Shown here piece after piece: positions 11,120 to 37,392 of a stretch of DNA of 43,527 nt (the first letter of the stretch is position 1; the number at the start of each line of letters is the position of its first letter). The position numbers and the translations under genes are program-made. Below the pieces are notes generated by a model. It was not told where the DNA came from and did not search any database. It saw only the letters and a list, made by a program, of their open reading frames with translations. Source of the DNA: an uncultured Candidatus Saccharibacteria bacterium (GTDB lineage Bacteria; Patescibacteriota; Minisyncoccia; Phycocordibacterales; Phycocordibacteraceae); NCBI GenBank assembly GCA_964460875.1, contig CAYWQN010000002.1, positions 1-43,527 of the forward strand, in the 5' to 3' direction.

Positions 11120-11124
11120 CGGCA

Positions 11125-21066: not shown

Positions 21067-21261
21067 ATGATTAAGCTCATCATCTGGATAGTTATCGGCC
21101 TTCTGGCCCTCTCGTTCTTTGGCATATCGCTCCGGGCTATCGCCGGATCCCCAACGAATCAGGACAACATCCAGTTCCTGCTTACGACCCTTGAGCAGGG
21201 CTGGGACTATATCGTCGCGTGGGTCGCTGACCTTCTGAGCGTGTTTGATTTTGCGCAGTAG
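21067..21261 (+). CDS. Small hypothetical membrane protein (64 aa)
   Basis: N-terminal TM helix IIWIVIGLLALSFFGI. TATACT lies 6 nt upstream of the ATG. Confidence 0.5.
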   Translation: MIKLIIWIVIGLLALSFFGISLRAIAGSPTNQDNIQFLLTTLEQGWDYIVAWVADLLSVFDFAQ

Positions 21262-21262
21262 C

Positions 21263-21511: not shown

Positions 21512-21524
21512 CCGAGGGCACCCG

Positions 21525-21533
21525 TGCTACACT
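21525..21533 (+). promoter_or_regulatory. Extended -10-like box TGCTACACT, 7 nt upstream of the response-regulator ATG
   Basis: The identical nonamer recurs at 28220-28228 upstream of the giant gene. Confidence 0.4.
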
Positions 21534-21540
21534 CCTTCGG

Positions 21541-22183
21541 ATGAAGATAGCGATAGTAGAAGATGAGCTCCGCCTCGCGCAGGTCCTCAAGCAGGGGCTC
21601 GAGTACGAGAATCATCGAGTGGACCTCTTCCACACCGCGAGCACCGCGCGCGAGCGGCTCGAATATTCAGGCAGCCTCTATGACCTCATCATACTCGACC
21701 TCATGCTCCCGGACGGGGACGGAACAGATGTCTGCTCCGGCATACGCGCTTCCGGCGTGCAGACGCCCGTATTAGTCTTGACCGCTCGGGACTCAACCGA
21801 AGACTAGGTGGCGCTGCTTGACCGCGGCGCAGACGATTTCCTCACCAAGCCATTCGATTTCGATGAGCTTCTGGCCCGAAGCCGGGCGCTTGCGCGCCGT
21901 GCAAACGACGGGCCGGCCGCTACCATCACCATAAGCGACGTCACCATAGTTCCGGAGCGGTTCGAGGTGCGCCGCAAGAACAAGATACTGCCTCTCACGG
22001 CGCGCGAGTTCGAGCTCCTTGCATATCTCGTGCGCAATCGCGGCAAGGTAGTGAAGCGCGAGGAACTACTTGCTAGGGTCTGGGGCCAGACGCAGGCCAC
22101 CACGAACGTAGTAGACGTACATATCCGCAATCTTCGGAAGAAACTCGACGAGCCGTTCGAAACGAAGCTCATACAAACCATTC

Positions 22184-22212
<29 letters not shown>
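21541..22212 (+). pseudogene. OmpR/PhoB-family response regulator interrupted by one in-frame TAG (21805-21807)
   Basis: The two track ORFs (21541-21807 and 21808-22212) are in the same frame. Read through, they give LTARDSTED*VALLDRGADDFLTKPF, a continuous receiver domain, followed by a winged-helix output domain (LTAREFELLAYLVRNRGKVV...HGVGYTI). Confidence 0.8.
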
Positions 22213-23164
<952 letters not shown>

Positions 23165-23259
23165 CGTTACTATCCCCACCTCGATATAAGCATTTATTAA
23201 TATTTCATTAATTTCATCACGTATACTTCAAAGTGCCCGAGTACTAACTTCGGCAATGG

Positions 23260-23988
23260 ATGAATCTATTCCCCTTATATACGAACAACACGAGGATACC
23301 GCAGGTATCTTCTAACGCGACGATACTAGCGAATCGTTACTCGTTCCGTCTTGTGCGCCGAGCGCCTGTTCTACGCGCCAAAGGGGAAGTAATTCACTCA
23401 CGAGTAGAAGTCCCTCCAGTCGAGCCGTTCCCGCCTACCGCTGTTGAGCCTCAGACCGCGCCGGAGATTGTACGGGTACAGGGAGTGGATGACGGGAAGC
23501 GCAGTTTCCTCAAGCTTGCGAGCGTCGTTGGACTCGGCGTTGTAGCTGCGTCGGCCCTACCGCAAAAAGCACAAGCGTATGTGATGGGGAGTGCACCAAC
23601 CTCAAGTGTGGTAGGTGTAAAGAATGCTTCGAATGTGCGGGTAAACCCTGCAACTCAAGAAACTCTTCAGGTACTTGTTGAAGGTAACTCGGTATTAAAG
23701 AAGACGATTAGTCTCTCAGGATCCGGGACCGTGCATACCCCTGCTTCAGGAAAAAAAGTACGCATCTATAACACCAAGTTCTCACTTGATGCCACGATGA
23801 CGAGCGTTTCCTTCCGCTTTACCTCAGGTGGCACCGATTTCGAGAAGTATGTAGCACCTCGTACCGGAGGCCTCTATGGCACGAACAACCATCCCAACTA
23901 TAAGGAAGGTGGGGTGGATGAGGTGGTGTACTGCTCGATAAGCGGCACCGGGAACGTGCAGATAAACATTGATTATTTAGAAGTGTAA
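23260..23988 (+). CDS. Hypothetical exported/membrane protein with a Tat-like KRSFLK signal-anchor segment and a C-terminal beta-rich domain
   Basis: Residues 78-106 read DGKRSFLKLASVVGLGVVAASALPQKAQA (nt 23491-23577), which compares with the Tat consensus S/T-R-R-x-F-L-K plus h-region plus AxA. First gene of a tightly spaced operon ending in tatC-tatA. The start codon is uncertain because an 80-aa N-terminal extension precedes the signal. Confidence 0.6.
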   Translation: MNLFPLYTNNTRIPQVSSNATILANRYSFRLVRRAPVLRAKGEVIHSRVEVPPVEPFPPTAVEPQTAPEIVRVQGVDDGKRSFLKLASVVGLGVVAASALPQKAQAYVMGSAPTSSVVGVKNASNVRVNPATQETLQVLVEGNSVLKKTISLSGSGTVHTPASGKKVRIYNTKFSLDATMTSVSFRFTSGGTDFEKYVAPRTGGLYGTNNHPNYKEGGVDEVVYCSISGTGNVQINIDYLEV

Positions 23989-23998
23989 TCTTATTACT

Positions 23999-26407
23999 AT
24001 GGCAAAACGAGTCACCGAGCATCTGTTCACTGGAGGCACCGTCATGTACGACGCGTACGACTCGACGAAAACTGTGCTCGGCGACCTCATCCGCCAACAA
24101 ACAGGCGCGGCATCCACTGACAAATACGCCGGTCCAACAAAAGTAGCTGTTGCCCGACCGAACGAAACGTCGGTAGCGGTTCCAGGCATCTACCCTCACG
24201 TCGTACGCTGGTCGGATAAATCAGGCTATTACATAACGGGCACCGTAGCGGTATCAGGCACCGCCGTCACCGGGTCCAGCACCGCGTGGCTCGCTGCGGG
24301 CGTGCCAGTGAATGCACGCATAGGCTTCGGTACTACCGACCCGGTAGCGGTAACGACCTGGTACAACATCGTGGCCATCCCTTCAGACACCTCACTGACG
24401 CTCGACGGATCTGCCGGCACCATAGCGGGCGGCACCTCGTTTGTTATTGATATGAACTACAACGTTGACTGGGTATTTCTAGCCGACGGTGCCGCAACCG
24501 CTGCAACAAGACGTATCACCTGCTTTGAATATCGCCGCGGTCTATCAATCTTCACCTGGAAAGGATTCATTACGCAGACGTATCCGACTGCCACGAACCA
24601 CACGATTACCGGTATGCGCGCCGTGTACGCGAAGTACACGACCGGCACCGTGGGAGTTTCCACCGCAACGGTAACGGGGAGCAGCACCACCTGGAGCGCT
24701 GACCGCATCAACATTGGCTCCCGCATCGGATTTGGTTCGTCCGACCCCACCCAGATATCTACCTGGTATTACATCAATGCCGTAGGGTCCGACACCTCAA
24801 TCACTATTCAAAACAACGTCACCGCTTCTGGTACCGGCGGCGTCGCATCGAACCTCTCAATATCCTCCGGCACCGCATACGTCATCGAGGACCTGCGCAT
24901 TCTCACTACCACAACAAACGCTACAGCCACCAACGGCGGACTCTTCATGTCCGCTGGCATGTCGCAGGATGACTTTACCCCTGCGGGCACCACTATTGCT
25001 GCAGCGGTGACCACTGACAAAGTAAAAGCAGTGTACTGGCTTGCCGATGCCTCAACCGTCACCAACGACGCGAACTCAGGCCTTGCGCTTGACGATCGGG
25101 ATAGTTGGACCCAGCAGTACTGCTACGTCATTGAGCGCGTCGCCGCGACCACGCCGTCAATATACAAATACAATTTCCGCACTGCGCTTGCGTCAATATC
25201 TGCCGGGAAAACTACCTCTGCGTTCGTGTTTGCAACCGGCATCCAGACCGTTACCGGTAACACATCAGCAACTAACAACGGCCGTGTCGGCACACTTTCC
25301 CACGGCCCGGCTTCCGGAATAAAGTCTCTCTTCTTCGCAACGACTTCGCGCATTTACCGCGTTGCAATCGGAAATATAGTAAACGGTTCGACCACATTTC
25401 TTTCTGACGCCATGGTGGAAGTACCGACCGGAGGCACCGGAACCTTTACGGCCACCGGCGCATTAACCGGCGTTGAAATTTCAGACCAGATTGACCGCCT
25501 TATCGTAACCTCAACGGGAGCTGCGGGCGTGAGAAGCTACGTAACCAAGTACAACACTAACTCCGATCCTTTCGACCATATCTTCCTGATTGACTCTAAG
25601 CAAATAGATCAGGCGGCAGCTGACTCAAGCTCAGTGCCACACCCCAACATCCAGGCCGGTATCATGAACGTCTGGTCAGAAGAAGGACTCACGTACATAA
25701 GCCGCGCCGGCACCACTTCGCTTACAAACGCACTCTACGCCGTGCCGCTTGGCGCTGATTGGTCCTATGCCGACGGCACGGTAAAACAGCGGCTTTACAC
25801 CCCATCCCTAGCGACGCCTAATGCGGTTAAGTATTCGCGTGCGTATGTAAATAATGCGCAATACTTGGGAGAAGATAATCTCACGCTTCCGACCGAACCG
25901 ATGCGCATGTATTACCGAACTTCGGGTATAAGCGATAACAGCGGCTCATGGACGCTCATCGACCAAACGGGGGACCTTTCCGGTGTTGATGGCGCGGCCG
26001 CCATACAGTTCGCAATTGAGTTCCGCACGATTGGTACGTTCTGTTTACCAACTCGCGTGTTTAACGTATGTGTTGTATATGAAGACAACACGACCGATAG
26101 CCATTACCAGCCATCGGTAGCGTTCTCTTCAACCACTGCTAAGCAGTTCGCATGGCGCTTCTCGACTGCCTTTGGCGGCACTGTGCCTACCTTGCAGATA
26201 CAGCTGTTCGACGCAGTTTCAGGAAGCCTCCTACTCACCGATGACAGCGCAACTCCAACGGGAACCTGGGAAAAATCTACAAACGATGGGGGAGCGTGGG
26301 GCGCGTACAATACCACTGACAAGGGAAATGATACGACCTATATCCGCTACACGCCGGCTGCTCTTGGCGACGATGTGAAAGTGCGTGCCCTCCTTACCCA
26401 AGCCTAA
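23999..26407 (+). CDS. Hypothetical 802-aa Thr/Ser/Gly/Ala-rich protein with an internal duplicated module and no signal peptide
   Basis: Long uninterrupted ORF 10 nt after the upstream stop. Duplicated GTVxVSxTxVTGSSTxW...RIGFG...WYxI...SDTS(L/I)T module at residues 78-151 and 212-298. Confidence 0.75.
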   Translation: MAKRVTEHLFTGGTVMYDAYDSTKTVLGDLIRQQTGAASTDKYAGPTKVAVARPNETSVAVPGIYPHVVRWSDKSGYYITGTVAVSGTAVTGSSTAWLAAGVPVNARIGFGTTDPVAVTTWYNIVAIPSDTSLTLDGSAGTIAGGTSFVIDMNYNVDWVFLADGAATAATRRITCFEYRRGLSIFTWKGFITQTYPTATNHTITGMRAVYAKYTTGTVGVSTATVTGSSTTWSADRINIGSRIGFGSSDPTQISTWYYINAVGSDTSITIQNNVTASGTGGVASNLSISSGTAYVIEDLRILTTTTNATATNGGLFMSAGMSQDDFTPAGTTIAAAVTTDKVKAVYWLADASTVTNDANSGLALDDRDSWTQQYCYVIERVAATTPSIYKYNFRTALASISAGKTTSAFVFATGIQTVTGNTSATNNGRVGTLSHGPASGIKSLFFATTSRIYRVAIGNIVNGSTTFLSDAMVEVPTGGTGTFTATGALTGVEISDQIDRLIVTSTGAAGVRSYVTKYNTNSDPFDHIFLIDSKQIDQAAADSSSVPHPNIQAGIMNVWSEEGLTYISRAGTTSLTNALYAVPLGADWSYADGTVKQRLYTPSLATPNAVKYSRAYVNNAQYLGEDNLTLPTEPMRMYYRTSGISDNSGSWTLIDQTGDLSGVDGAAAIQFAIEFRTIGTFCLPTRVFNVCVVYEDNTTDSHYQPSVAFSSTTAKQFAWRFSTAFGGTVPTLQIQLFDAVSGSLLLTDDSATPTGTWEKSTNDGGAWGAYNTTDKGNDTTYIRYTPAALGDDVKVRALLTQA

Positions 26408-26409
26408 TT

Positions 26410-27030
26410 ATGATTACTATCTCAAAGGGTGATCGTGTCGCGGGACTTCCCGACCTCATAGTGTCCTCTCCGTCGGGAGAGTACGCAGACGTAGACCTTA
26501 TTCTCTGTGCGCGGAAGGACGCGCCGAACTTCGACGCCGCCATGTACCAAGCGCAGTTTATCCGGTACGGAGAAGTCGTCTATCAGCACGAGACACCGGA
26601 AGCGCTTGGAGCGGTGCTTGTCGCCATTGATCCAGAATCCACTCATGATGCTGCGCAGCTGTGGCGGGAAGAAGAGAAGCGTCGCATCGCACGTGAAGGC
26701 GGTACTCTAGTGCCAGAAGATCAAACTCCTGCACCCGATGCCGTTGAACCTCAGACAACTATTCCTGAGGAAGAAGAGGACGACGTGAAGTTCTTTAAAG
26801 AGAAAGAGGAAGAAGCAGCTACTACCACACCAGATGAAGCGGTGCCGGACAGAGAAATCCCTGTCATTGATATTGAAGAACCGCCACTCGGCGAGGTGGG
26901 TGGTGCAGCATCTTCTACAGAGCCAATCGCCGATCCTTCAGTCCCCGTCATACAAATTGACGAGCCAGTGGTGACTCCTCCAGTTGAAGATGTGCCAGCG
27001 CTCGATATGTCGAGCACAACACCGCAATAG
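26410..27030 (+). CDS. Hypothetical acidic protein (206 aa) with a Pro/Glu/Thr-rich disordered tail
   Basis: Starts 2 nt after the previous stop. The C-terminal half is low complexity (EEEEDD, EKEEEAATTTPDE, repeated PVI(D/Q)I(E/D)EP). Confidence 0.6.
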   Translation: MITISKGDRVAGLPDLIVSSPSGEYADVDLILCARKDAPNFDAAMYQAQFIRYGEVVYQHETPEALGAVLVAIDPESTHDAAQLWREEEKRRIAREGGTLVPEDQTPAPDAVEPQTTIPEEEEDDVKFFKEKEEEAATTTPDEAVPDREIPVIDIEEPPLGEVGGAASSTEPIADPSVPVIQIDEPVVTPPVEDVPALDMSSTTPQ

Positions 27031-27032
27031 CC

Positions 27033-27215
27033 ATGGCGCTAACCGATATCGACTTTAACGAAGGAGAAGGACAAGATTTCATCGTCGAGCTTGCGACTGG
27101 AACTCTGGGTACGCCGGGAGATATTCTGGTCGAAGCAGGGAGCGATGCGTATCTTCTCCTAGAAACCCCAGCAGGGCAGGGAGGCGGGGATGAAATATTC
27201 ATCATAAACGACTAA
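27033..27215 (+). CDS. Hypothetical small acidic protein (60 aa)
   Basis: Starts 2 nt after the previous stop, in operon context only. Confidence 0.45.
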   Translation: MALTDIDFNEGEGQDFIVELATGTLGTPGDILVEAGSDAYLLLETPAGQGGGDEIFIIND

Positions 27216-27238
27216 CCAGGTCTGGTATCCTTCAGGGC

Positions 27239-27970
27239 ATGGACGATTCAGCGCCGATTACGGAACGCTATGGCGAGTATCTTGAAGAGCTACGGCGCAG
27301 ACTCTACCGTCTTGCGCTTATCTTCGTCGCTTCTTTCTTCATAGGAGTTGGTTCTACCAGTATCTTGCTGCCTTTTTTCGTAACACTCTTCTCTGTGCCG
27401 GGAGTGACCATCATTGCCACCTCGCCGTTTCAACTTCTTGAACTGACGATGAATACCGGTTTTTTCTCGGCGATAGCGCTTACCCTTCCGTTTGCGCTTC
27501 GTGAAGTCTATGCCTTTCTCCACGACGCGCTCTTACCACGTGAACGGCGTCTTATTTTCTGGTACATTCCGCTCGCCCTTCTTCTCTTCGCCGCCGGCTT
27601 TACCTACGGATTTGCGATTATGTATTACGCTATCGTGGTCATCGCGAACGTCAACATCGGGTTCGGTATCACTAATCTCTGGAATATTACCCAATTCATC
27701 TCACAAATCCTTATCACGGCAGCACTCCTCGGCGTCATCTTCGAGCTTCCGTTAATCCTTTCTGGCCTTATCCAGCTCGGCGTGTTGTCGGTAGACTACC
27801 TGCGCCGTCATCGTCGCATCGCATATGCAGGGATATTCATCTTTGTTGCTTTACTTCCCCCAACCGACGGGCTATCCTTCCTGGTGATGTCCCTTCCGCT
27901 TGTGGCGCTCTACGAAGTGACGATTGCCGTCAATTCGTTCCGCCGCCGGAAAGAACTCTTAACAATATAA
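27239..27970 (+). CDS. tatC: Twin-arginine translocase subunit TatC
   Basis: 243 aa. N-terminal EYLEELRRRL helix followed by six hydrophobic segments, and the LLPPTDG motif typical of TatC. TGGTATCCT lies 7 nt upstream. Confidence 0.85.
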   Translation: MDDSAPITERYGEYLEELRRRLYRLALIFVASFFIGVGSTSILLPFFVTLFSVPGVTIIATSPFQLLELTMNTGFFSAIALTLPFALREVYAFLHDALLPRERRLIFWYIPLALLLFAAGFTYGFAIMYYAIVVIANVNIGFGITNLWNITQFISQILITAALLGVIFELPLILSGLIQLGVLSVDYLRRHRRIAYAGIFIFVALLPPTDGLSFLVMSLPLVALYEVTIAVNSFRRRKELLTI

Positions 27971-27982
27971 TTTTTGGTACCT

Positions 27983-28141
27983 ATGTTTGGACTCGGCTCG
28001 AATGAACTCATCATCATCGCGGTCATTCTCGTACTTTTGTTTGGTGCCACCCGCATCCCAGCGCTCACGAAAGGAGTAGCAGACGCTATTCGCACACTGC
28101 GCGGTGCATTCAAAGACGAAGACAAAAACAAGAAGGTATAG
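27983..28141 (+). CDS. tatA: Twin-arginine translocase subunit TatA/E (52 aa; below the ORF-track cutoff)
   Basis: Hand translation MFGLGSNELIIIAVILVLLFGATRIPALTKGVADAIRTLRGAFKDEDKNKKV matches the TatA pattern: MFGxGxxELxxIxxxxxLLFG, then an amphipathic helix with GxxxxxFK. TAG stop at 28139-28141. Confidence 0.8.
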   Translation: MFGLGSNELIIIAVILVLLFGATRIPALTKGVADAIRTLRGAFKDEDKNKKV

Positions 28142-28147
28142 CACAAA

Positions 28148-28180
28148 GAAAAATCCCGGTCCTAGCCGGGATTTTTCTTG
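28148..28180 (+). terminator. Intrinsic terminator after tatA
   Basis: GAAAAATCCCGG-TCCTAG-CCGGGATTTTTC followed by TTG. It ends the 23260-28141 operon. Confidence 0.75.
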
Positions 28181-28219
28181 TATTCTTGTGGGGAAAAGGG
28201 AAGAGTGCTCTAGAGGCAG

Positions 28220-28228
28220 TGCTACACT
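28220..28228 (+). promoter_or_regulatory. Extended -10-like box TGCTACACT, 6 nt upstream of the GTG start of the giant gene
   Basis: Same nonamer as at 21525-21533. No Shine-Dalgarno sequence intervenes. Confidence 0.4.
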
Positions 28229-28234
28229 GTAAAA

Positions 28235-31200
28235 GTGAAGATTTCATTAAGCGGCCCTGCCGCTTTAAGCGGGAATCAAAAAAGGACTAGGATACGCATT
28301 GCGGGCCTAGCGTTGTTTGTTGCGCTATATATAGGGCTTCCCGCCGCCGTAGAAGCTGCGTACCAGCAGTTCCTTCCAGGAACTGATATCTACTTTGGTG
28401 AATTCGTATACGACGATGACTTTGTAGCAACTACTACCGCAGGCTGCACCATGACGGTCTATGATCCGTCTGGCTCACTTGTGGTGAATGCGGCAACAAT
28501 GACCGTTGACCCCAATGGCTTCTACGCCTATTCCTTTACACCAACCGAAACCCGGGGGGTATGGCCCGCATCCATGTCCTGCGGATCGGCATTAAACGGA
28601 AGTCTGGTGAAGCTCGATAAGACGTTTGAGATATCAGACAATGTTGTTTCCTCTTCGTCCGTTGCTGCCCTAGTAAATGCGAATACGAATCTTGCGGTTG
28701 CGACCGCTTCCTCTTCGCTCTCAGCAACCCTTCCTAATTCCATTTGGGCCTTCTCAGGTCGCACTCTTACATCGTTCGGAACATTAGTAGCTGACATCTG
28801 GGCATCCGGCACTCGCACCCTTACCGGATTTGGCACCCTTGCGGCTGACGTGTGGACATCCGCAACACGTACACTCACCGCTGCCGGTCTCACCTCGGGA
28901 TCACTGGCTCTTCAGTCAGATGTCACCACCGCTAGTTCGTCACTGGGCACGGCCATCACGAACAGTCAAACGGCTATTAATGCGAACACGAACTCACAGA
29001 TACTTACTGCCTCAACATCGCTCGCGTCGTTCATCAATACGAACACCAACGCGATTGTGCTCGCCGCTTCAAGCTCGCTGGGAGCGCAATTCAACGTCCT
29101 GGGAGCGACTATTGCAGGCATACCGGCGGCGGTCTGGAATATCACTACCGCATCGCTCTCAAGCCCAGGATCGATAGGGAAGCTTATCGTGGATAACCTC
29201 GATGTCGCGGTATCGACGGTTTCGGGTGGTGGTGGCCTCACGGCGGTTGATATCTGGACCTATGGCACACGAACGCTCACCGCAGCAACCCTCTCTTCAG
29301 GAGCACTCGCGCTTCAGTCTGACGTGACGACCGCCTCCTCCTCTATTGCGGCAGTGGTCAATGGAAATACGAATGCACAGGTACTTGCCGCTTCCACCTC
29401 ACTTGCTTCGAACATCAACACCAACACCAATGCCATTGTTCTTGCTGCCTCCTCGTCCCTCGGTGCTCAGTTCTCATCTATAACGTCATCCATTGCTTCC
29501 ATTCCAACCAACGTTTGGGCCGCAGGGACGCGTACTCTGACCGGCTTCGGAACGCTCGCAGCTGACGTCTGGACCAACGGTACTCGTACGCTTACCGGTG
29601 CCGGTCTCTCGTCAGGCTCTCTTGCCACGCTGTCTGACCTACAGACAGCATCATCATCTCTTGGCGCCGCTATTACTAACAGCGAAACGGCAATTAATGC
29701 GAACACGGATGCTGAGGTGCTTGCGGCTTCCACCTCACTTGCGTCCAATATCAACACAAACACGAACGCACAGGTACTCACCGCTTCTACCTCCCTTGGT
29801 CTCTCGCTTTCATCAATCGCATCTTCTATTACTTCGATACCGGCGAACGTATGGGCAGCAGGCACGCGTACGTTAACTGGGTTCGGTACTCTTGCTGCTG
29901 ACGTTTGGACCAATGGCACCAGAACCCTTACCGGAGCCGGCTTGTCGTCTGGATCCCTTGCCACTTTGTCTGACGTACAGAACGCTTCAAGCTCAGTGGC
30001 TGCAGTCGTAAACTCAAATACCGACAGTCGAGTTGCAATTGCTACCTCCTCGCTTGCTGCGGTGGTGAATGCGAACACCAACGCAACCGTTCTTGCCGCT
30101 TCCTCCTCGCTTGGCGCTCAGTTCGGCACGCTCGCAACAGCAATATCAGGTGTACCTGCCGGAGTCTGGAACATCACTACCGCCTCGCTCTCAAGTCCGG
30201 GCACGATAGGGAAGCTCCTCGTGGATAACATCGATGTACCTATTTCAAGCGGTGGCAGTCTTACAGCAGCCGATGTATGGGCGTTCGGCTCTCGCACTCT
30301 TACCGCCGCAACGTTGAGTGCCGGTTCGCTTGCACTTCAGTCTGACGTAACCACCGCATCCAGCTCACTCGCTGCAGTTATTAATGCCAACACCAACAGC
30401 GCAACAGCAGGAGTTACGAGTAGCGTGAACAGCAACACCAATGCAACGGTACTTACTGCATCGTCATCCCTTGCAACCTCGATTCCAGTGAACGTATGGA
30501 ATGCATCAGTACGCACGCTTTCATCATTTGGCACACTCGCTACCGATGTGTGGAGCGCAGCAAGCAGGACCCTCACGGCAGCTGGGTTGACGAGTGGTTC
30601 GCTCGCAACGTTGTCTGATGTGCAGACGGCCTCAAGCTCACTCGGGACAGCAATAACAAATAGTCAAACGGCAATTAACGCGAACACCGACAGTAGGGTA
30701 GGTATCGCATCGTCATCTCTTGCTGCGGTCATCAATGCAAATACGAACCTCTCCGTTCTCACGGCGTCCACCTCGCTTGGTCTCTCGCTTTCATCGATAG
30801 CAACTTCGATCACTTCAATTCCTACCGCAGTGTGGGCCGCTGGCACACGCACTCTTACCGGGTTCGGCACCCTTGCAGCTGACGTTTGGACGAATGGCAC
30901 CAGGACCCTTACCGGTGCAGGTCTCACCTCAGGGTCCCTTGCCACGCTGTCTGACCTACAGACAGCATCATCATCTCTTGGCGCCGCTATTACTAACAGC
31001 GAAACGGCAATTAATGCGAACACGGATGCTAAAGTACTTGCAGCTTCCACCTCGCTTGCATCCAATATCAACACAAACACAAACGCTACGGTGCTCGCTG
31101 CGTCCTCATCTCTTGGCGCTCAGTTCTCCTCTATTACGTCCGCTATCACTGCAGTTCCAGCGGCAGTATGGAACGTCGCAAGCTCTACGCTCACCACTCC

Positions 31201-34200
31201 AGGTTCTATTGGCAAGCATATCGTTAACAACCTCGATATTGCGGTCTCGACTATTTCAAGCGGCAGTGCCATTACCCCTGCTGACATCTGGGCGTACGGT
31301 ACGCGCTCCCTCACCACAGCCGCACTTTCTTCAGGGGCGCTGGCCACCAATGCTGATATCAACGCAGCGACCACGAGTGTGAACACCACCATCGGTACTG
31401 CCTCTTCATCCCTGGCAGCGGTTATCAACACCAATACCAATACGCAGGTTCTTACGGCTTCAACTTCGCTTGGCGCTCAGTTCTCGTCGATCACCTCATC
31501 CATTGCTTCCATCCCAACCAACGTTTGGGCCGCAGGGACACGCACCCTTACCGGGTTCGGCACCCTTGCGGCTGACGTCTGGACGAACGGCACACGAACA
31601 CTCACTGGCGCAGGGTTGTCGTCTGGATCCCTTGCGACGTTGTCTGATGTACAGACCGCTTCGAGCTCTGTCGCTGCGGTCGTGAATGCAAACACTAATA
31701 GTGCGACGGCAGGAGTTACGAGTAGCGTGAACAGTAATACCAATGCAACGGTACTTGTTGCATCGTCATCCCTTGCAACCTCGATACCAATAAATGTATG
31801 GAATGCATCAGTACGCACCCTTTCATCATTCGGTACGCTTGCAACCGATGTCTGGAGCGCAGCATCACGCACGCTCACTGCAGCTGGCCTTACCTCAGGA
31901 TCGCTCGCGCTTCAGTCAGACGTGACTACCGCGTCCTCCTCACTTGGTGCGGCAATAACGAACAGTCAAACCGCCATTAACGCAAATACGGATAGCCGTG
32001 TGGCAGTAGCAACATCGTCACTTGCTGCGGTCGTGAATGCGAACACAAACGCAACCGTTCTTGCAGCATCGTCCTCACTTGGCGCTCAGTTCTCGTCGAT
32101 CACCTCATCCATTGCATCCATCCCAACCAACGTATGGGCGGCAGGGACGCGTACTCTGACCGGCTTCGGAACGCTCGCAGCTGACGTCTGGACCAACGGT
32201 ACTCGTACGCTCACGGCTGGCACGCTTTCGGCGGGGTCGCTCGCCTTGCAGTCTGACGTAACGACGGCATCTACCTCTCTTGGCACAGCGATAACCAATA
32301 GTCAGACGGCGGTGAACGCGAACACCAACGCGCAGGTACTAGCGGCCTCCACTTCGCTTGCGTCGAATATAAATACCAATACGAACGCACAGATTCTCGC
32401 AGCCTCTTCTTCGCTCGCAACCGCGATACCCGTGAATGTCTGGAACGCGTCAGTCCGCACGCTCTCGTCGTTCGGTACGTTCGCGACCGATGTTTGGAGC
32501 GCCGCTTCGAGGACGCTCACGGCGGCGGGTCTGACCTCGGGAAGTCTCGCAACCTTGTCTGACGTTCAGACCGCATCATCCTCTATCGCGGCCGTCGTGA
32601 ATGCGAACACGGACACGAGGGTGACCACGGCAACTTCCTCGCTTGCAGCCGTCATAAACGCCAACACGAATGCGCAGGTGTTAACGGCATCCACCTCGCT
32701 TGGCCTCTCGCTCTCATCAATTGCTTCGTCCATCACCTCAATTCCAGCAAACGTCTGGGCGGCGGGCTCGCGTACGCTCACCGGTTTTGGAACGCTCGCG
32801 GCTGATGTGTGGACGAACGGGACGAGAACACTTACCGCAGGCACCCTTACTTCAGGAACGCTCGCCTTGCAATCTGACGTGACGACGGCTTCGTCGTCCC
32901 TCGGCACCGCCATTACGAACAGCCAGACGGCGGTGAACGCAAATACGAACGCGACGGTGCTCGCCGCATCCACGTCACTTGCCGCAGGAACCGCTGCAAG
33001 CCAGACCGTCGTAAACGCAAACACCAATGCCGCAGTCTTGGCCGCATCGTCCTCGCTTGCAACTTCTATACCCGTGAACGTGTGGAATGCATCAGTCCGC
33101 ACGCTCTCGTCGTTCGGTACGCTCGCGACCGATGTTTGGAGCGCCGCTTCGAGGACGCTCACGGCGGCGGGTCTGACCTCGGGAAGTCTCGCAACCTTGT
33201 CTGACGTTCAGACCGCCTCGTCGTCTGTCGCTTCAGTAGTTAACGCAAACACCAGTGCTGCAGTTCTCGCCGCATCCACGTCGCTTGCCTCGAACATAAA
33301 CGCGAATACCAACGCGACGGTGCTCGCCGCGTCGTCGTCCTTGGGTGCGCAGTTCTCGTCGATTACCTCATCAATTAGCGCGCTGCCGGCTGCGGTCTGG
33401 AACGTCGCAAGCACCACCCTTACGACCCCAGGCTCGATAGGCAAGCATATCGTCGGCAACCTCGATATCGTCGTATCGTCGATATCGGGCGGCGGCGGAC
33501 TTACCGCAGCAGACGTCTGGGCGTACGGTACGCGCTCGCTCACCACAGCGGCACTCTCTTCCGGCTCATTGGCCACGAATGCTGACATAAATACCGCCAC
33601 CTCGACCCTCACCACGACTATCACGACCGCCTCCTCGTCTATCGCCGCAGTCGTGAATGCAAATACCAATAGCGCCACGGCAGGGGTGACGAGCGGCGTG
33701 AATAGCAACACAAACGCCGCCGTTCTCGCCGCATCGTCGTCGCTTGCGACCTCGATACCGGTGAATGTGTGGAATGCCTCGGTCCGAACCCTCACCAGCT
33801 TCGGCACTATCGCGTCTGACGTCTGGAGCGCTGCAACGAGGACGCTCACGGCAGGCACACTCACCTCAGGAACGCTTGCGCTCCAGTCTGACGTTCAGAC
33901 CGCGTCTTCCTCCCTTGGCTCGGCGATAACGAACAGTCAGACGGCGATAAATGCCAATACCGACAGCCGCGCCTCCATCGCATCCTCGTCGCTTGCGGCG
34001 GTGATAAATGCGAACACCAACGCACAGGTACAGACTGCGTCCACCTCGCTCGGCGCCACGCTTGCCGCGATGCCGGCTGCAGTATGGGCGTCAGCCACAA
34101 GGACGCTCACCTCAGGCGCCTCTATCGCCTCAGACATCTGGGCGGCAGGCACGCGCACCCTCACGTCCCTCACGCTCTCGTCGCAGTCGCCGTGGTCGGT

Positions 34201-35086
34201 CGGCATGTCTGACTTCAGCACCATCACGGCAGGCGAGACCTATCGCGCGACGGTGACGACGGTCTACAACGGCACGCTTACCGATTCGGCAAACCTGCCG
34301 ACCATCATCGTGTATGACGCAAACCGCAACGTGGTCGTGAACGGCGCCGCCATGACGCGCACCGCGGTAGGCACCTACGAATACAGCTACGTGACAAGCG
34401 TGAGCGCCGCAGGCGGCGTATGGGAGACCGTCGTGTCTGCCACGGTTGAGTCAGGGAAGACGTTGCCGGGCAACGACTACTGGAACGTCTCGGTCGCGCC
34501 GCCGCAGGTCATCATCCAGAGCATGAGCAATACCGTGGTGCCGAACATCACCGCGAACGTCCGCATCACGAACGAGGGTGATGTGCCCTACGAATACCAG
34601 TACGAATGGTGCGTCGTCTCGAGCCTCGCAAATGGCTGCGGCGGCGGCGATGATATCGCGTACGGATCGGCCGCGAAGCTCATCAATCCGCTCGAGAACT
34701 TCGACACCGTCCTGTCGGCAACCGTCCCCGCGGCCGGCACCTATTACTTCAAGGTCGCGGTCTACTACGGCTCTGACGTATCACGCGCAAGCCGCCAATT
34801 CGCCGCAACTGCAGCAACCACCTCCGGAGGCGGGGGTGGCGGAGGCGGAGGCGGAGGCGGCGGGGGAGGAGGCGGAACCCCGGTCCCCGGAAGCGGCAGC
34901 TGCGGAGGAAATGTCGCCGATATCAACTGCGACGGCCGGGTGAATGCCGTGGACTTTTCCATCATGCTTGCGTATTGGAAGACCCAGGCGCCGTTCCGTA
35001 ATCCGCGCGTCGACCTCAATACTGACGCGCGCGTCGACGCCGTCGACTTCTCGATACTCCTCTATCACTGGGGCGCCACACGCTAA
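28235..35086 (+). CDS. Giant (2,283 aa) tandem-repeat surface protein with N-terminal signal/anchor, poly-Gly linker and C-terminal type-I dockerin
   Basis: A single 6.85-kb ORF. N-terminus KRTRIRIAGLALFVALYIGLPAAVEAA. About 17 Ser/Thr/Ala/Asn-rich modules. Seventeen consecutive Gly codons. The C-terminus has two dockerin calcium-binding repeats, DINCDGRVNAVDFSIML and DLNTDARVDAVDFSILL. Confidence 0.85.
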   Translation: MKISLSGPAALSGNQKRTRIRIAGLALFVALYIGLPAAVEAAYQQFLPGTDIYFGEFVYDDDFVATTTAGCTMTVYDPSGSLVVNAATMTVDPNGFYAYSFTPTETRGVWPASMSCGSALNGSLVKLDKTFEISDNVVSSSSVAALVNANTNLAVATASSSLSATLPNSIWAFSGRTLTSFGTLVADIWASGTRTLTGFGTLAADVWTSATRTLTAAGLTSGSLALQSDVTTASSSLGTAITNSQTAINANTNSQILTASTSLASFINTNTNAIVLAASSSLGAQFNVLGATIAGIPAAVWNITTASLSSPGSIGKLIVDNLDVAVSTVSGGGGLTAVDIWTYGTRTLTAATLSSGALALQSDVTTASSSIAAVVNGNTNAQVLAASTSLASNINTNTNAIVLAASSSLGAQFSSITSSIASIPTNVWAAGTRTLTGFGTLAADVWTNGTRTLTGAGLSSGSLATLSDLQTASSSLGAAITNSETAINANTDAEVLAASTSLASNINTNTNAQVLTASTSLGLSLSSIASSITSIPANVWAAGTRTLTGFGTLAADVWTNGTRTLTGAGLSSGSLATLSDVQNASSSVAAVVNSNTDSRVAIATSSLAAVVNANTNATVLAASSSLGAQFGTLATAISGVPAGVWNITTASLSSPGTIGKLLVDNIDVPISSGGSLTAADVWAFGSRTLTAATLSAGSLALQSDVTTASSSLAAVINANTNSATAGVTSSVNSNTNATVLTASSSLATSIPVNVWNASVRTLSSFGTLATDVWSAASRTLTAAGLTSGSLATLSDVQTASSSLGTAITNSQTAINANTDSRVGIASSSLAAVINANTNLSVLTASTSLGLSLSSIATSITSIPTAVWAAGTRTLTGFGTLAADVWTNGTRTLTGAGLTSGSLATLSDLQTASSSLGAAITNSETAINANTDAKVLAASTSLASNINTNTNATVLAASSSLGAQFSSITSAITAVPAAVWNVASSTLTTPGSIGKHIVNNLDIAVSTISSGSAITPADIWAYGTRSLTTAALSSGALATNADINAATTSVNTTIGTASSSLAAVINTNTNTQVLTASTSLGAQFSSITSSIASIPTNVWAAGTRTLTGFGTLAADVWTNGTRTLTGAGLSSGSLATLSDVQTASSSVAAVVNANTNSATAGVTSSVNSNTNATVLVASSSLATSIPINVWNASVRTLSSFGTLATDVWSAASRTLTAAGLTSGSLALQSDVTTASSSLGAAITNSQTAINANTDSRVAVATSSLAAVVNANTNATVLAASSSLGAQFSSITSSIASIPTNVWAAGTRTLTGFGTLAADVWTNGTRTLTAGTLSAGSLALQSDVTTASTSLGTAITNSQTAVNANTNAQVLAASTSLASNINTNTNAQILAASSSLATAIPVNVWNASVRTLSSFGTFATDVWSAASRTLTAAGLTSGSLATLSDVQTASSSIAAVVNANTDTRVTTATSSLAAVINANTNAQVLTASTSLGLSLSSIASSITSIPANVWAAGSRTLTGFGTLAADVWTNGTRTLTAGTLTSGTLALQSDVTTASSSLGTAITNSQTAVNANTNATVLAASTSLAAGTAASQTVVNANTNAAVLAASSSLATSIPVNVWNASVRTLSSFGTLATDVWSAASRTLTAAGLTSGSLATLSDVQTASSSVASVVNANTSAAVLAASTSLASNINANTNATVLAASSSLGAQFSSITSSISALPAAVWNVASTTLTTPGSIGKHIVGNLDIVVSSISGGGGLTAADVWAYGTRSLTTAALSSGSLATNADINTATSTLTTTITTASSSIAAVVNANTNSATAGVTSGVNSNTNAAVLAASSSLATSIPVNVWNASVRTLTSFGTIASDVWSAATRTLTAGTLTSGTLALQSDVQTASSSLGSAITNSQTAINANTDSRASIASSSLAAVINANTNAQVQTASTSLGATLAAMPAAVWASATRTLTSGASIASDIWAAGTRTLTSLTLSSQSPWSVGMSDFSTITAGETYRATVTTVYNGTLTDSANLPTIIVYDANRNVVVNGAAMTRTAVGTYEYSYVTSVSAAGGVWETVVSATVESGKTLPGNDYWNVSVAPPQVIIQSMSNTVVPNITANVRITNEGDVPYEYQYEWCVVSSLANGCGGGDDIAYGSAAKLINPLENFDTVLSATVPAAGTYYFKVAVYYGSDVSRASRQFAATAATTSGGGGGGGGGGGGGGGGGTPVPGSGSCGGNVADINCDGRVNAVDFSIMLAYWKTQAPFRNPRVDLNTDARVDAVDFSILLYHWGATR
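28646..34194 (+). repeat. In-frame tandem repeat array (about 17 modules of roughly 100-125 aa, or 300-375 nt) inside the giant gene
   Basis: Recurrent peptide boxes (V/I)W-x3-(T/S)R(T/S)LT, GSLA(T/L)(L/Q)SDVxTASSS and NANTNxxVLAASSSL. Copies share identical stretches of 71, 93 and 94 nt. Confidence 0.9.
34826..34876 (+). repeat. 17 consecutive glycine codons (GGN microsatellite-like tract)
   Basis: The sequence reads gga ggc ggg ggt ggc gga ggc gga ggc gga ggc ggc ggg gga gga ggc gga, in the frame of the giant gene. Confidence 0.9.
34919..35083 (+). other. Dockerin type-I module (two EF-hand-like repeats) at the C-terminus of the giant protein
   Basis: D-x-N-x-D-(G/A)-x-V-x-x-x-D-F-S-I-(M/L)-L occurs twice, separated by about 20 residues. 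Confidence 0.8.
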
Positions 35087-35089: not shown

Positions 35090-35935
35090 ATGAACTATCT
35101 TTACGCTATCGCACTGTTCTTGCTCCTCCTGGTCGCCGAGCCTGCCCAGGCGGCGCGCTTGTCGGTTGAAGCGCCGCTAGCCGCCGCCGAAGCGCCATTC
35201 TATCTTCCGGTAGTCCTTCAGACCGAGAACGATTCTATAAACGCCGTTACCGGCTCCATACTCGTCCCGCCCGGCATCACGATAGACAGCATCGACACTT
35301 CAGGCTCAGCCTTTGCGCTCTTTGCTGAAGGCCCGTCATATGTCCTGGCCTCACATGCCATCGAATTCACCGCAGGCGCCCCGCACGGCATAGCAGCAGG
35401 CGAAGTGGCGCTCCTCTTTATCGTGAAAGCGCATGCCATAGCGCCAGGAACCTATACCTTCACCCCGCAGAATATGTCTGCGTACGCGAACGACGGGGCT
35501 GGAAGTCCGGCAAGCATCGCTTTTTCATCGACGGCAGTATCCGTTGGCGCTCCTGGCTCGGTGCATGTGGATCCACCGAAGACTGAGCACGCAGCGCCCA
35601 TCATCGCGGCCATAGGCCAGGACGACTCCTTGTTCGAAGGGAAGTGGTTCGCCACCTTCTACGGCGGCGCTTCAGGAAGCGCGGTTGATCATTATCTCGT
35701 GCGCGAAGGGTGGTGGCACGGCACGGTAAAAGCGAACCGCTACTACGTGCTCGAAGACCAGCGCCGCACCACGACCCTCTGGATAACGGCAGTAGGCGAG
35801 AACGGCAAGAAAGTGACGACGGTTATTCCCGCCTTCGAGCCATGGCCGGAACGGCTTCTCTTCGCGGCAATCGTGCTTGTCGCAGGCGCGCTCGCGGCGC
35901 TCCTATGGAAGATGCGCCGAAGGCGTTCACACTAG
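35090..35935 (+). CDS. Membrane-anchored cohesin-like protein (281 aa)
   Basis: Sec-type signal (LLLLVAEPAQA). A roughly 130-aa beta-sandwich-like region shows the cohesin-like pattern (FYLPVVLQTENDSINAVTGSILVPPGITIDSID...GEVALLFIVKAHAIAPGTYTF). C-terminal TM plus basic stop-transfer tail (LLFAAIVLVAGALAALLWKMRRRRSH). Starts 3 nt after the dockerin gene. Confidence 0.55.
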   Translation: MNYLYAIALFLLLLVAEPAQAARLSVEAPLAAAEAPFYLPVVLQTENDSINAVTGSILVPPGITIDSIDTSGSAFALFAEGPSYVLASHAIEFTAGAPHGIAAGEVALLFIVKAHAIAPGTYTFTPQNMSAYANDGAGSPASIAFSSTAVSVGAPGSVHVDPPKTEHAAPIIAAIGQDDSLFEGKWFATFYGGASGSAVDHYLVREGWWHGTVKANRYYVLEDQRRTTTLWITAVGENGKKVTTVIPAFEPWPERLLFAAIVLVAGALAALLWKMRRRRSH

Positions 35936-35937
35936 CC

Positions 35938-37392
35938 ATGATGCGCTTCACGTACGCCGCCGCTCTCATCCTCCTGCTTACGGGCGCGCCCGTCGTCGCA
36001 ACCGCAGCGACCATTCAAGTAACGCCCGCATCAGTCTCCGTGCATGCAGGCGATATCGTGACGGTGCGCCTCATCGCGAACACCCAGGGGGCGGCCATAA
36101 ACCAGGGCGAAGGCACGCTCCGCTTCCCGACCGACATGCTCGACGTAGTGTCTGCAAGCAAAGCAGGCTCCATATTCACGCTCTGGGTGGAGGAGCCCGC
36201 GTACTCGAACGGCGCCGGTACCGTGCATTTCGACGGCGGCGTGCCCACCCCGGGGTACACCGGCTCCGCGGGTACCATGCTTGCCATCACCTTTCATGCA
36301 AAAAAAGCCGGGACGGCGACGCTTTCGCTTACCGATAGCGCGCTCCGGGCAAACGACGGCTTCGGCACCGACGTGCTGACCGCGTCAAACGGGGGAGTCA
36401 TTACCATCACGGAGACGGTAGCGCCTGCGCCAACACCCGCGACGCCTGCGCCCGCCACACCGAGCGCGCCCGTCGGCGCCGGCAGCATCGCTTCGCTCAC
36501 CTCGTCAACGCACAGCGATCAGACCGCGTGGTACCAGAACGAGAATGCCTTGATGACGTGGCAGCTCCCGGCAGGCGCTACCGCCGTGCAGACTATCGTC
36601 GACCGCAGCGCGACTGCGGCGCCTTCGGTCGAGTACAAGCCGGCTATCGTCGAGAAGCGCGTCACTAACCTTGCTGACGGCGTGTGGTACTTCGGAGTGC
36701 GCGCGAAAGTAGGAGGCGCCTGGGGGCCGGTAGCGCGCTACACGCTCCAGATTGACCGCTCGGCTCCCGAGCTCGCCTCAACCATAACGCTCGACTACGA
36801 TGAAGCGGCTCAGGATCTCCTCATATCCGGCGTATCCGCCTCTGACGAGGTGTCCGGCATCGACCACTACGAGCTTTCGGTAGACGGGAAGAATCCGCTT
36901 CGGGTGGCGTCAGACGCTTTTGCCGGAGGTTCGTACCGCCTCCACTACGCAAAGACGGGCACGCACTCGATACAGCTTCGCGCGTATGACAAGGCGGGGA
37001 ACCACACCGAGGCTTCCGGCTCGTTCAATACCCCGACGCCGCTTGCCGACCAGACGCTCTGGCGCATAGGCGGCCTCTCCATCACCTTCGCCTGGTTCAT
37101 ACTGCTCGTTCTCCTCATATCGCTTGTTTCGCTCGCAGCTGCAGCGACCGCTTGGTATAAACTGTATATGCTCCGCGCGGGAGCGAAATCCCGCGTCGAG
37201 AAGCGCGACAAGATGCTGCACCGCTCGCTACGCATCTATAAAGAAGAGCTGGAGCGGCACCTGCGCACTTTGGAACGTGCAGGATCAAAGCGCGAGCTCA
37301 CCGACGAGGAGGCGGACCTGAACGAAGACCTCAAGAAGAACGTGGACGACCTGGAACGCTATCTGACCAAAGAGTTCAAGAAGTACGATTAG
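35938..37392 (+). CDS. Membrane-anchored cohesin-domain protein (484 aa) with Ig/FN3-like middle region and cytoplasmic coiled-coil tail
   Basis: Signal peptide MMRFTYAAALILLLTGAPVVATA. Cohesin-like segment IQVTPASVSVHAGDIVTVRLIANTQGAAINQGEGTLRFPTDMLDVVS...GTMLAITFHAKKAGTATLSL. Pro/Ala/Thr linker, then TM FAWFILLVLLISLVSLAAAATAW, then a charged tail. The start is trimmed from the track value 35710 to the ATG just after the upstream stop. Confidence 0.62.
   Translation: MMRFTYAAALILLLTGAPVVATAATIQVTPASVSVHAGDIVTVRLIANTQGAAINQGEGTLRFPTDMLDVVSASKAGSIFTLWVEEPAYSNGAGTVHFDGGVPTPGYTGSAGTMLAITFHAKKAGTATLSLTDSALRANDGFGTDVLTASNGGVITITETVAPAPTPATPAPATPSAPVGAGSIASLTSSTHSDQTAWYQNENALMTWQLPAGATAVQTIVDRSATAAPSVEYKPAIVEKRVTNLADGVWYFGVRAKVGGAWGPVARYTLQIDRSAPELASTITLDYDEAAQDLLISGVSASDEVSGIDHYELSVDGKNPLRVASDAFAGGSYRLHYAKTGTHSIQLRAYDKAGNHTEASGSFNTPTPLADQTLWRIGGLSITFAWFILLVLLISLVSLAAAATAWYKLYMLRAGAKSRVEKRDKMLHRSLRIYKEELERHLRTLERAGSKRELTDEEADLNEDLKKNVDDLERYLTKEFKKYD

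What the first reader, a model, noticed from the sequence alone, without database searches (positions are those of the whole stretch)
32100..32600. A GC-composition break lies inside the giant gene's repeat array
Hand counts of single 60-nt lines:
- Upstream of about 32.2 kb: 52% at 29701, 47% at 31681, 53% at 32041.
- Downstream: 57% at 32281, 62% at 32581, 67% at 33301.
- The same peptide, VNANTNSATAGVTS(S/G)VNSNTNA, is encoded at 28/60 G+C at 31681 and at 35/60 at 33661. The shift is therefore synonymous (third codon position).
- Genes upstream (the tat operon) are also low: 40% at 23641 and 47% at 27301.
- The cohesin genes downstream are high: 63% at 36301.

Inference: the fibre gene is a mosaic joined within the repeats. 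One explanation is recombination between a resident GC-rich allele and an incoming lower-GC segment. The other is an assembly chimera where an assembler switched between related genomes inside the repeats.
Basis: partly seen in the sequence, partly recalled or inferred. Interest (0 to 1): 0.6.

Follow-up and report, generated by a model that had tools for sequence, protein, structure and literature searches.

The report
Recombination seam inside a surface-fibre gene
The jump in base composition inside this giant surface-fibre gene is real and most likely marks the right-hand end of about 13 kb of DNA recently taken up from a lower-GC sister species, a well-known kind of event (a mosaic gene) seen here in a tiny-genome Patescibacteria bacterium.

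Summary
Third-codon-position GC (GC3) in the 2,283-aa fibre gene steps from 0.52 to 0.72 at nt 32,087 (support interval 32,063-32,453). GC1 and GC2 stay flat. It is the strongest intragenic step among 480 genes of this 785-kb MAG.

The step is one edge of a low-GC3 tract, about 18.76-32.2 kb. The other edge is a mirror-image GC3 step (0.77 to 0.56) inside an M23-peptidase gene at about 18.8 kb.

G499 is the nearest species in the genus and has lower GC (GC3 0.54, against 0.69 here). Its identity to the window is:
- 71-78% in the backbone;
- 94-100% over 18.8-29.3 kb, apart from an unalignable 0.9-kb stretch and an 87% stretch at 19.5-21.0 kb;
- 68% in the cohesin gene downstream.

Trees of the fibre's N-terminal and C-terminal domains are strongly incongruent.

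Best reading (confidence 0.7): homologous recombination brought in a G499-like segment, and its right end lies in register inside an A-type repeat module. The 3' half, the dockerin and the cohesin genes are long-resident DNA.

Two things remain open:
- The donor of 29.4-32.1 kb is unknown.

This is a new example of a known kind of event.

The parts
28235..35086 (+). Giant fibre gene (2,283 aa). It has a signal peptide, an MG2-like N-terminal domain, 15 recognisable repeat modules of about 105 aa in the order C A A C B A C A B | A B A B C B, a C-terminal domain, a 17-Gly linker and a type I dockerin.
   Evidence: ORF list; translation; Pfam matches to MG2, DUF7032 and Dockerin_1; module motifs.
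32063..32453 (+). J2, the GC3 change point (the finding). The maximum-likelihood position is 32087. GC3 goes from 0.52 to 0.72. J2 lies inside the A-type module that starts at 32132.
   Evidence: 2dlnL 95.6; support interval; codon-usage painting flips sign here.
32078..32211 (+). The last stretch with high identity to modules of the 5' half. 32078-32115 is identical to 31469-31506 (38 nt). 32141-32211 is identical to 29522-29592 (71 nt). Paralogue identity falls to about 0.74 after 32211. This is the likely crossover zone, and also the place where an assembler could switch paths.
   Evidence: Exact-repeat map; sliding best-paralogue identity.
18762..32211 (.). Low-GC3 tract with G499-like codon usage, about 13.4 kb, read as imported DNA. 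The two-component genes at 21.5-23.2 kb are an exception, with G000-like GC3.
   Evidence: Per-gene GC3; codon-usage log-likelihood painting; identity profile against G499.
18741..19059 (+). Left junction, inside the M23-peptidase gene 18162-19502. GC3 of this genome drops from 0.77 to 0.56 at 18804, while G499 stays at 0.51/0.58. Nucleotide identity to G499 jumps from about 0.70 to 0.94 at about 18.75-18.8 kb. Third-position differences fall from 0.59 to 0.19.
   Evidence: Pfam Peptidase_M23.
21001..29370 (.). Core of the shared tract, with 2.0% nucleotide differences to G499 (165 in 8,368) and third-position differences of 0.02-0.06. It holds the two-component genes, the Tat operon (23260-27970) and the first ~1.1 kb of the fibre gene.
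29230..29370 (+). J1, where identity to G499 decays from 98% to 79% in a collinear alignment. There is no change of composition at this point.
   Evidence: 60-column identity profile; the 5' part of the gene is compositionally homogeneous.
29371..32086 (+). Segment B. GC3 is about 0.50 and the composition is G499-like, but it is 21-26% diverged from G499's array. Its donor is unknown.
   Evidence: No closer relative was found.
32212..35086 (+). Segment C, with codon usage typical of this genome (GC3 0.67-0.72 in the repeats, 0.80-0.87 in the C-terminal domain). It is read as long-resident DNA. A borderline secondary step lies at 34133.
35090..37392 (+). Two cohesin-like genes, the resident right flank. 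GC3 is 0.72, and identity to G499 is 68% nt and 70-72% aa, which is backbone-level divergence.

Best explanation
The GC3 step at about 32.1-32.2 kb is a real recombination junction. It is the right-hand end of about 13.4 kb (18.76-32.2 kb) of DNA that this GC-richer genome (G000, GC3 0.69) took in from one or more lower-GC close relatives of its sister species G499 (GC3 0.54).

The DNA replaced the resident alleles at the same syntenic locus by homologous recombination. The left crossover lies inside the M23-peptidase gene. The right crossover lies in register inside an A-type module of the fibre's repeat array.

The import carries the 3' part of the M23 gene, a few small genes, a two-component system, the Tat operon, the fibre's N-terminal domain and its first 9-10 modules. 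The last 5-6 modules, the C-terminal domain, the dockerin and the cohesin genes are older residents that have this genome's own codon usage.

Shown:
- both composition steps;
- the identity profile against G499;
- the match of the tract's codon usage to G499;
- the incongruence of the N-terminal and C-terminal domain trees.

Inferred:
- that the 29.4-32.1 kb segment came in with, or before, the G499-like part;
- the uptake route (ComEC-type uptake plus RecA);
- that the contig is physically continuous in the cell.
For: 1. G499 is the nearest member of the genus: GltX is 76% identical, and the next best is 71%. Backbone identity is 71-78% nt, with third-position differences of 0.54-0.59. In the tract, third-position differences are 0.02-0.06, and 0.19 in the M23 3' part.
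2. G499's contig C18 joins the same backbone gene to the same tract, so the locus is syntenic in both genomes.
3. The direction of transfer is indicated by the M23 gene. G000's GC3 falls from 0.77 to 0.56 at the identity jump, while G499 stays flat. The tract's codon usage fits a G499 backbone model and not the G000 model.
4. Backbone differences are skewed (G000 has G/C where G499 has A/T 316 times, the reverse 161 times). Differences in the tract (63:63) and in segment B (78:83) are symmetric. Neither has evolved under G000's GC-ward pressure for long.
5. The right flank is at backbone-level divergence from G499 (cohesin gene 68% nt) and has G000-like composition.
6. In the N-terminal domain tree G000 sits with G499, G593 and G610. 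In the C-terminal domain tree it sits with G370, G555, G425 and G428. AU tests reject the swapped groupings (p = 1.6e-5 and 6.6e-55).
7. There is no tRNA at the borders, no Pfam integrase or transposase match among the tract proteins scanned, and no direct repeat longer than 8 nt between the two borders. ComEC and RecA are present in the genome.
8. No second copy of any cluster gene exists in the MAG. The longest exact run shared by G000 and G499 in 9.4 kb of backbone is 26 nt, and 17 nt next to the left junction. A de Bruijn assembler would have little to hop on there.
Against: No reads or independent assemblies could be examined.

At J2 itself there is no donor sequence. The junction is defined by composition and by paralogue affinity only.

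The identity breakpoint against G499 (about 29.3 kb) does not coincide with J2. A single-event model therefore needs a donor whose array differs from G499's.

The junction sits on exact 38-nt and 71-nt intragenic repeats. These are the kind of sequence on which an assembler can switch between co-occurring alleles.

The two-component genes inside the tract have G000-like GC3 in both genomes. This complicates a simple one-way transfer.

The clades used in the AU tests were named after the identities had been seen.
Confidence: 0.7

Rival explanations
1. Assembly artefact at J2. The import is real in one strain, but the assembler switched inside the repeat array to the allele of a co-occurring strain or species. 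The joint at about 32.1-32.2 kb would then exist in no cell, and the true right end of the import would lie elsewhere.
For: This is a metagenome-assembled genome of 52 contigs. The junction coincides with exact 38-nt and 71-nt repeats, and other 93-94-nt repeats lie in the same gene. Two relatives (G370 and G499) have this gene broken across contigs inside the array, which shows the array is hard to assemble.
Against: The contig has no N and returns to G000-type sequence for 11 kb to its end. The nested repeat layout allows only one path through single-copy segments (reasoned). No leftover fragment of another allele is in the bin. The left junction lies where G000-type and G499-type DNA share runs of at most 17-26 nt, so at least that end cannot easily be an assembler hop. 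The join is in frame and in module register.
Confidence: 0.17
2. The polarity is reversed. The low-GC3 cluster is the old resident of this locus, and the GC-rich 3' half plus the cohesin genes were brought in from a GC-richer donor.
For: In another genus member (G007) the whole cluster is low in GC3 (0.40-0.66) against a backbone of 0.68-0.79. The fibre's C-terminal domain has GC3 of 0.80-0.87, above the genome's 99th percentile for genes. Its nearest relatives are distant members of the genus.
Against: In the M23 gene it is G000 that changes composition at the identity jump, from its own GC3 to G499's. The tract is 10-30 times less diverged from G499 at third positions than the backbone. Everything to the right of J2 up to the contig end is G000-like and at backbone-level divergence from G499.
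Confidence: 0.08
3. The step arose in place, without any import. Candidates are GC-biased gene conversion among modules, local mutation bias, or selection on codon usage or mRNA structure that differs along the array.
For: Short gene-conversion-like patches (71-125 nt at 99-100% identity) exist among the modules.
Against: The converted patches in the 5' half are not GC3-enriched (0.43-0.60). The same amino-acid modules occur on both sides. The low-GC3 state extends 9.5 kb upstream through unrelated genes. It ends in a second sharp step that coincides with a jump in identity to another species.
Confidence: 0.03

Closest known systems
Mosaic genes made by interspecies homologous recombination (pneumococcal pbp2x/pbp1a/pbp2b from Streptococcus mitis; Neisseria penA; from my own knowledge, and see PMC8321556, PMC4125147, PMC8715442 listed)
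   Same: There is a block of donor-like sequence with sharp intragenic breakpoints. The flanks are at species-level divergence. The result is in frame. No mobile-element genes are involved, and the organism has DNA-uptake and RecA genes.
   Different: Here the donor and recipient differ by about 25-29% in the backbone, against about 5-20% in those cases. The donor block is recognisable by GC3 as well as by identity. One breakpoint lies in a tandem repeat array of a surface fibre rather than in an enzyme gene. No phenotype is known. The evidence comes from MAGs only.
Core-locus exchange between Staphylococcus aureus and S. epidermidis at 24% divergence (PMC4453061; only its abstract was seen)
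   Same: It is gene flow between species as diverged as G000 and G499.
   Different: From my own knowledge, not checked here, that study attributes most transfers to mobile elements. Here no mobile-element gene was found in the tract, and both ends lie in homologous genes.
Cohesin-dockerin surface display (cellulosome-type anchoring)
   Same: The fibre ends in a type I dockerin (Pfam, 30.3 bits against a cut-off of 22.9). It is followed by two genes, of which the second has a weak cohesin match.
   Different: The cohesin match is below Pfam's cut-off (17.5 against 24.1 bits). No glycoside hydrolases are involved, and binding was not tested. This matters only for the consequence of the swap: the anchor end is kept and the distal end is exchanged.

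Membership tests
Mosaic gene from interspecies homologous recombination | A sharp intragenic change in identity to a donor-like lineage | tested here: met
   Identity goes from 0.70 to 0.94 at about 18.75-18.8 kb in the M23 gene. It goes from 0.98 to 0.79 at about 29.25-29.37 kb in the fibre gene. At J2 itself no donor sequence exists, so this feature is met for the tract but not for J2.
Mosaic gene from interspecies homologous recombination | Flanks on both sides at ordinary between-species divergence | tested here: met
   The left flank is 71-78% nt identical and the right flank (cohesin gene) 68%. Third-position differences are 0.54-0.61 in the flanks and 0.02-0.06 in the tract.
Mosaic gene from interspecies homologous recombination | Composition or codon usage of the block matches the donor lineage, not the host | tested here: met
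   Codon-usage log-likelihood per codon is -0.05 to -0.18 in the 5' part of the fibre and in the Tat operon. G499 backbone ORFs give -0.04 to -0.13, and G000 genes give +0.076 +/- 0.049. The sign flips at about 32.1 kb.
Mosaic gene from interspecies homologous recombination | Phylogenetic incongruence between the segments | tested here: met
   The N-terminal and C-terminal domain trees of 20-21 genomes differ. AU tests give p = 1.6e-5 and 6.6e-55. The groups were chosen after the identities had been seen.
Mosaic gene from interspecies homologous recombination | The mosaic is physically continuous in one genome (reads or an isolate) | not testable with these tools
No identical protein or contig is on record.
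Site-specific genomic island or integrative element | Integrase or transposase, a tRNA or att-type direct repeats at the borders | tested here: not met
   Pfam finds no integrase or transposase match in the tract's ORFs. The only tRNA is at 5700-5783. The longest match shared between the two borders is 8 nt.
Assembly chimera | The junction lies on sequence shared by two co-occurring genomes, and there is a coverage or read-pair break | tested here: inconclusive
   Exact 38-nt and 71-nt repeats lie at J2. At the left junction G000 and G499 share runs of at most 17-26 nt. Coverage and read pairs could not be examined.
GC-biased gene conversion within a repeat array | Converted tracts are GC3-enriched, and the effect is confined to the repeats | tested here: not met
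   Converted patches in the 5' half have GC3 of 0.43-0.60. The low-GC3 state extends through 9.5 kb of non-repeat genes upstream.

The most novel reading that the evidence does not exclude
In this Patescibacteria (Paceibacterota-like) group, the repeat array of the dockerin-anchored fibre may serve as a recombination adaptor. Its modules are conserved at the protein level across species, so diverged alleles can cross over in register. A cell could then swap the fibre's exposed N-terminal end, together with the adjacent Tat-exported partner proteins, between species. It would keep its own dockerin and its matching cohesin anchors. The strongly incongruent N-terminal and C-terminal trees across 20 genomes, and the 2%-diverged tract shared by species that are otherwise about 29% diverged, would be traces of a recurrent tip-swapping process. 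Such a process could be tied to host or partner attachment, or to phage pressure.
Probability: 0.3. Interest if true: 0.6.

Novelty: new member of a known kind. Interest (0 to 1): 0.42.

Why it matters
The finding gives a base-level example of recent gene flow between two species of ultra-small, uncultivated bacteria whose backbones differ by about a quarter of their bases. Both ends of the imported DNA lie inside genes.

It shows that a GC3 step can be used to find such seams in MAGs. It also shows that this genome's low-GC patches are not all of one origin.

What was exchanged is biologically suggestive. The distal two thirds of a surface fibre and a private Tat export operon were replaced, while the dockerin-cohesin anchoring end stayed. 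If this is general, it bears on how these bacteria (many relatives live attached to other cells; my own knowledge) vary their surfaces.

Practically, it flags this contig position as one that needs read-level validation before the 2,283-aa protein is used as a reference sequence.

Tried and rejected
- Independent assemblies: the exact-protein look-up found nothing. A metagenome scan with the C-terminal domain gave at most 77% identity. Two searches of the large protein collection (about 5.8 billion non-redundant sequences) found nothing close except G499's fragment.
- Searches by DNA or protein in 222 genus genomes and 401 order genomes found no relative closer than about 80% nt for 29.4-39.3 kb.
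Third-position identity between modules is 0.28-0.58, mostly 0.3-0.45, close to what unrelated sequences would give, both within and between the two halves. Only composition and a few short conversion patches separate them.
- An amelioration test on the 2%-diverged tract (G000 has G/C where G499 has A/T, against the reverse) gave 63:63. This is too few differences to tell a short residence from none.
- I asked whether imports from G499 are pervasive. The two next-strongest GC3-step genes (contig C11 11673-13916 and contig C5 19034-25948) match G499 only at 72-78%. The G499-like tract is therefore specific to this locus among those tested.
- A site-specific island was rejected.
- An in-place compositional process was rejected.
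Full report
**Setting.** The window is the whole of contig C2 of a 785-kb, 52-contig metagenome-assembled genome (G000, 57.7% GC). The contig of the nearest relative that carries the same gene is labelled Candidatus Paceibacterota bacterium.

The gene in question is 28235-35086 (+), 2,283 aa. It has:
- a signal peptide;
- an MG2-like N-terminal domain;
- 15 recognisable modules of about 105 aa, of three types, in the order C A A C B A C A B | A B A B C B;
- a C-terminal domain;
- a 17-Gly linker;
- a type I dockerin.

Two cohesin-like genes follow it, and an operon ending in tatC precedes it.

GC1 and GC2 are flat along the gene. GC3 goes from about 0.50 to about 0.67, and to about 0.84 in the C-terminal domain. 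The maximum-likelihood change point is nt 32087, with a support interval of 32063-32453. GC3 is 0.521 before it and 0.721 after it. The statistic is 2dlnL = 95.6, against a maximum of 20.9 in 1000 shuffles that keep the amino-acid sequence. Within the repeats alone the step is 0.52 to 0.69 at the same place.

At codons for the same amino acid in paralogous modules, the 3' half has G/C where the 5' half has A/T 134 times. The reverse occurs 61 times (p = 2e-7).

Crude gene calls for the whole genome give GC3 of 0.68 +/- 0.085. The 3' half is therefore ordinary and the 5' half is the odd part. Among 480 genes tested, this is the strongest intragenic step.

**2. The step is one edge of a tract.** Per-gene GC3 and a codon-usage likelihood painting give the following picture:

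| Region (kb) | Codon usage |
|---|---|
| 1-18.2 | G000-like |
| 19.9-21.5 | low GC3 |
| 21.8-23.2 | G000-like |
| 23.3-32.1 | low GC3 |
| 32.1 onwards | G000-like for nearly every gene to the contig end |

**3. A near-identical copy in the sister species.** The cluster (four unknown proteins and TatC, then the fibre, then two cohesin-like proteins) is conserved but patchy. Matches to the fibre protein were found in 59 of 401 genomes sampled in the order and in 15 of 222 in the genus.

One genus member, G499, is also the closest by a housekeeping protein: GltX is 76% identical, and the next best is 71%. Its identity to the window is as follows:

| Window region | Comparison with G499 |
|---|---|
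| Backbone (1-18.7 kb) | 71-78% nt identity; third-position differences 0.54-0.59 |
| 18.8-19.5 kb | 93-94% identity |
| 19.5-20.4 kb | not alignable |
| 20.4-21.0 kb | 87% identity |
| 21.0-29.37 kb | 98% identity (165 differences in 8,368 nt); third-position differences 0.02-0.06 |
| After about 29.25-29.37 kb | 79% identity, until G499's contig ends inside the array |
| Cohesin gene | 68% identity |

G499's contig C18 links the same backbone gene to the same tract, so the locus is syntenic.

G499's backbone has GC3 of 0.54, and the tract fits G499's codon usage.

**4. The left edge shows which genome is the recombinant.** The identity jump falls inside the M23-peptidase gene (18162-19502). 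There G000's GC3 falls from 0.77 to 0.56 (change point 18804, 2dlnL = 22.2, above every one of 300 shuffles). G499 stays at 0.51/0.58. G000 is therefore the recipient of lower-GC DNA, and the step in the fibre gene is the mirror image of this one.

Backbone differences are skewed toward G/C in G000 (316:161). Differences in the tract (63:63) and in the 29.4-30.5 kb stretch (78:83) are symmetric. Neither has spent long under G000's compositional pressure.

**5. Three segments, not two.**
- Segment A (28235 to about 29300) is G499-like by identity.
- Segment B (about 29370-32090) is G499-like by composition only. It is as diverged from G499's array as the backbone is.
- Segment C (from about 32212) has G000-like composition.

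The 5' part (A plus B) is compositionally homogeneous. No closer relative of B or C exists in anything I could search. Either one import came from a donor whose array differs from G499's, or two imports occurred. I cannot tell which.

**6. The junction itself.** The last stretch with 5'-half affinity is 32078-32211. Of this, 38 nt are identical to 31469-31506 and 71 nt are identical to 29522-29592. After 32211 the best paralogue identity falls to about 0.74 and GC3 stays high. The joint is in frame and in register within an A-type module. This is what a crossover in the longest available homology would leave. It is also where an assembler could change paths.

**7. Family-wide mosaicism.** In the N-terminal domain tree, G000 sits with G499, G593 and G610. 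In the C-terminal domain tree, it sits with G370 inside a clade with G555, G425, G428, G579 and G598. AU tests reject the swapped groupings (p = 1.6e-5 and 6.6e-55). The caveat is that I named the groups after seeing the identities.

Cluster proteins also have close relatives in other families: the 802-aa protein is 81% identical in G411, and the C-terminal domain is 75% identical in G083.

**8. Mechanism.**
- No Pfam integrase or transposase match among the tract's ORFs scanned.
- The only tRNA is at 5700-5783.
- The longest sequence shared between the two borders is 8 nt.
- ComEC and RecA are present in the genome.

Uptake of DNA from a relative, followed by RecA-dependent replacement of the homologous locus, is the simplest route. 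This is inferred, not shown.

**9. The assembly-chimera rival.** The indirect arguments against it are:
- The contig has no N.
- G000-type sequence lies on both sides of the tract.
- No spare copy of any cluster gene exists in the bin.
- G000-type and G499-type backbone share exact runs of at most 26 nt in 9.4 kb, and 17 nt next to the left junction.

A switch at J2 alone, between a strain with the import and a strain without it, remains possible. I give it about 0.17.

**10. Other rivals.**
- Reversed polarity, with the GC-rich 3' half as the newcomer, is contradicted by the M23 gene and by the G000-like right flank at backbone divergence.
- An in-place process, such as GC-biased gene conversion or selection, is contradicted because the low-GC3 state runs through 9.5 kb of unrelated genes, it ends at an identity jump, and the converted patches are not GC3-enriched.

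**11. Verdict.** The phenomenon is a mosaic gene produced by interspecies homologous recombination, which is a known kind. This example is clean, lies in an uncultivated ultra-small bacterium, and exchanges the distal part of a dockerin-anchored fibre together with its neighbouring Tat operon. Read-level confirmation of the joint at 32.1-32.2 kb is still needed.

Noticed in passing
window 21541-22212: The OmpR-type response regulator has an in-frame TAG at 21805-21807, where G499 has AAG. G499's copy instead has a 2-nt deletion in a CG run at about 21645. Both copies look inactivated, by different lesions. The histidine kinase next door is intact.
   Followed up: partly
window 21500-23200: The two-component genes lie inside the tract that is 98-100% identical to G499. 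Even so, they have G000-like GC3 (0.65-0.72) and codon usage in both genomes. The tract is itself compositionally mosaic.
   Followed up: partly
window 19504-20392: This is a non-homologous stretch within the shared tract. The window has an AAA/kinase-like ORF (19884-20399), whose G499 homologue lies on another contig at 68% nt. G499 has a different 160-aa ORF at this position.
   Followed up: partly
G000 contig C5 19034-25948 and contig C11 11673-13916: Two further strong intragenic GC3 steps exist: a second giant gene of 2,304 codons (0.68 to 0.50) and a 747-codon gene (0.36 to 0.72). Neither region matches G499 above 72-78%, so they have other causes or other donors.
   Followed up: partly
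window 34100-34650: The fibre's C-terminal domain has GC3 of 0.80-0.87, above the genome's 99th percentile for whole genes (0.81). A borderline secondary change point lies at 34133, at the end of the repeat array.
   Followed up: partly
L049 (G411) 12347-14758; L046 (G083) 7129-8484: Genomes of other families carry very similar cluster parts: the 802-aa Tat-operon protein at 81% aa in a GC-rich genome, and the fibre C-terminal domain at 75% aa. This suggests the cluster moves across families.
   Followed up: no
G499 contig C37 (L061), protein P0007: The public record of the sister genome is labelled Candidatus Paceibacterota bacterium. This disagrees with the earlier scan note that calls this genome Saccharibacteria.
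   Followed up: partly
L015 (G007) 399-12058: In another member of the genus, the whole Tat-fibre-cohesin cluster is low in GC3 (0.40-0.66) against a backbone of 0.68-0.79. There the entire cluster looks like a recent arrival.
   Followed up: no
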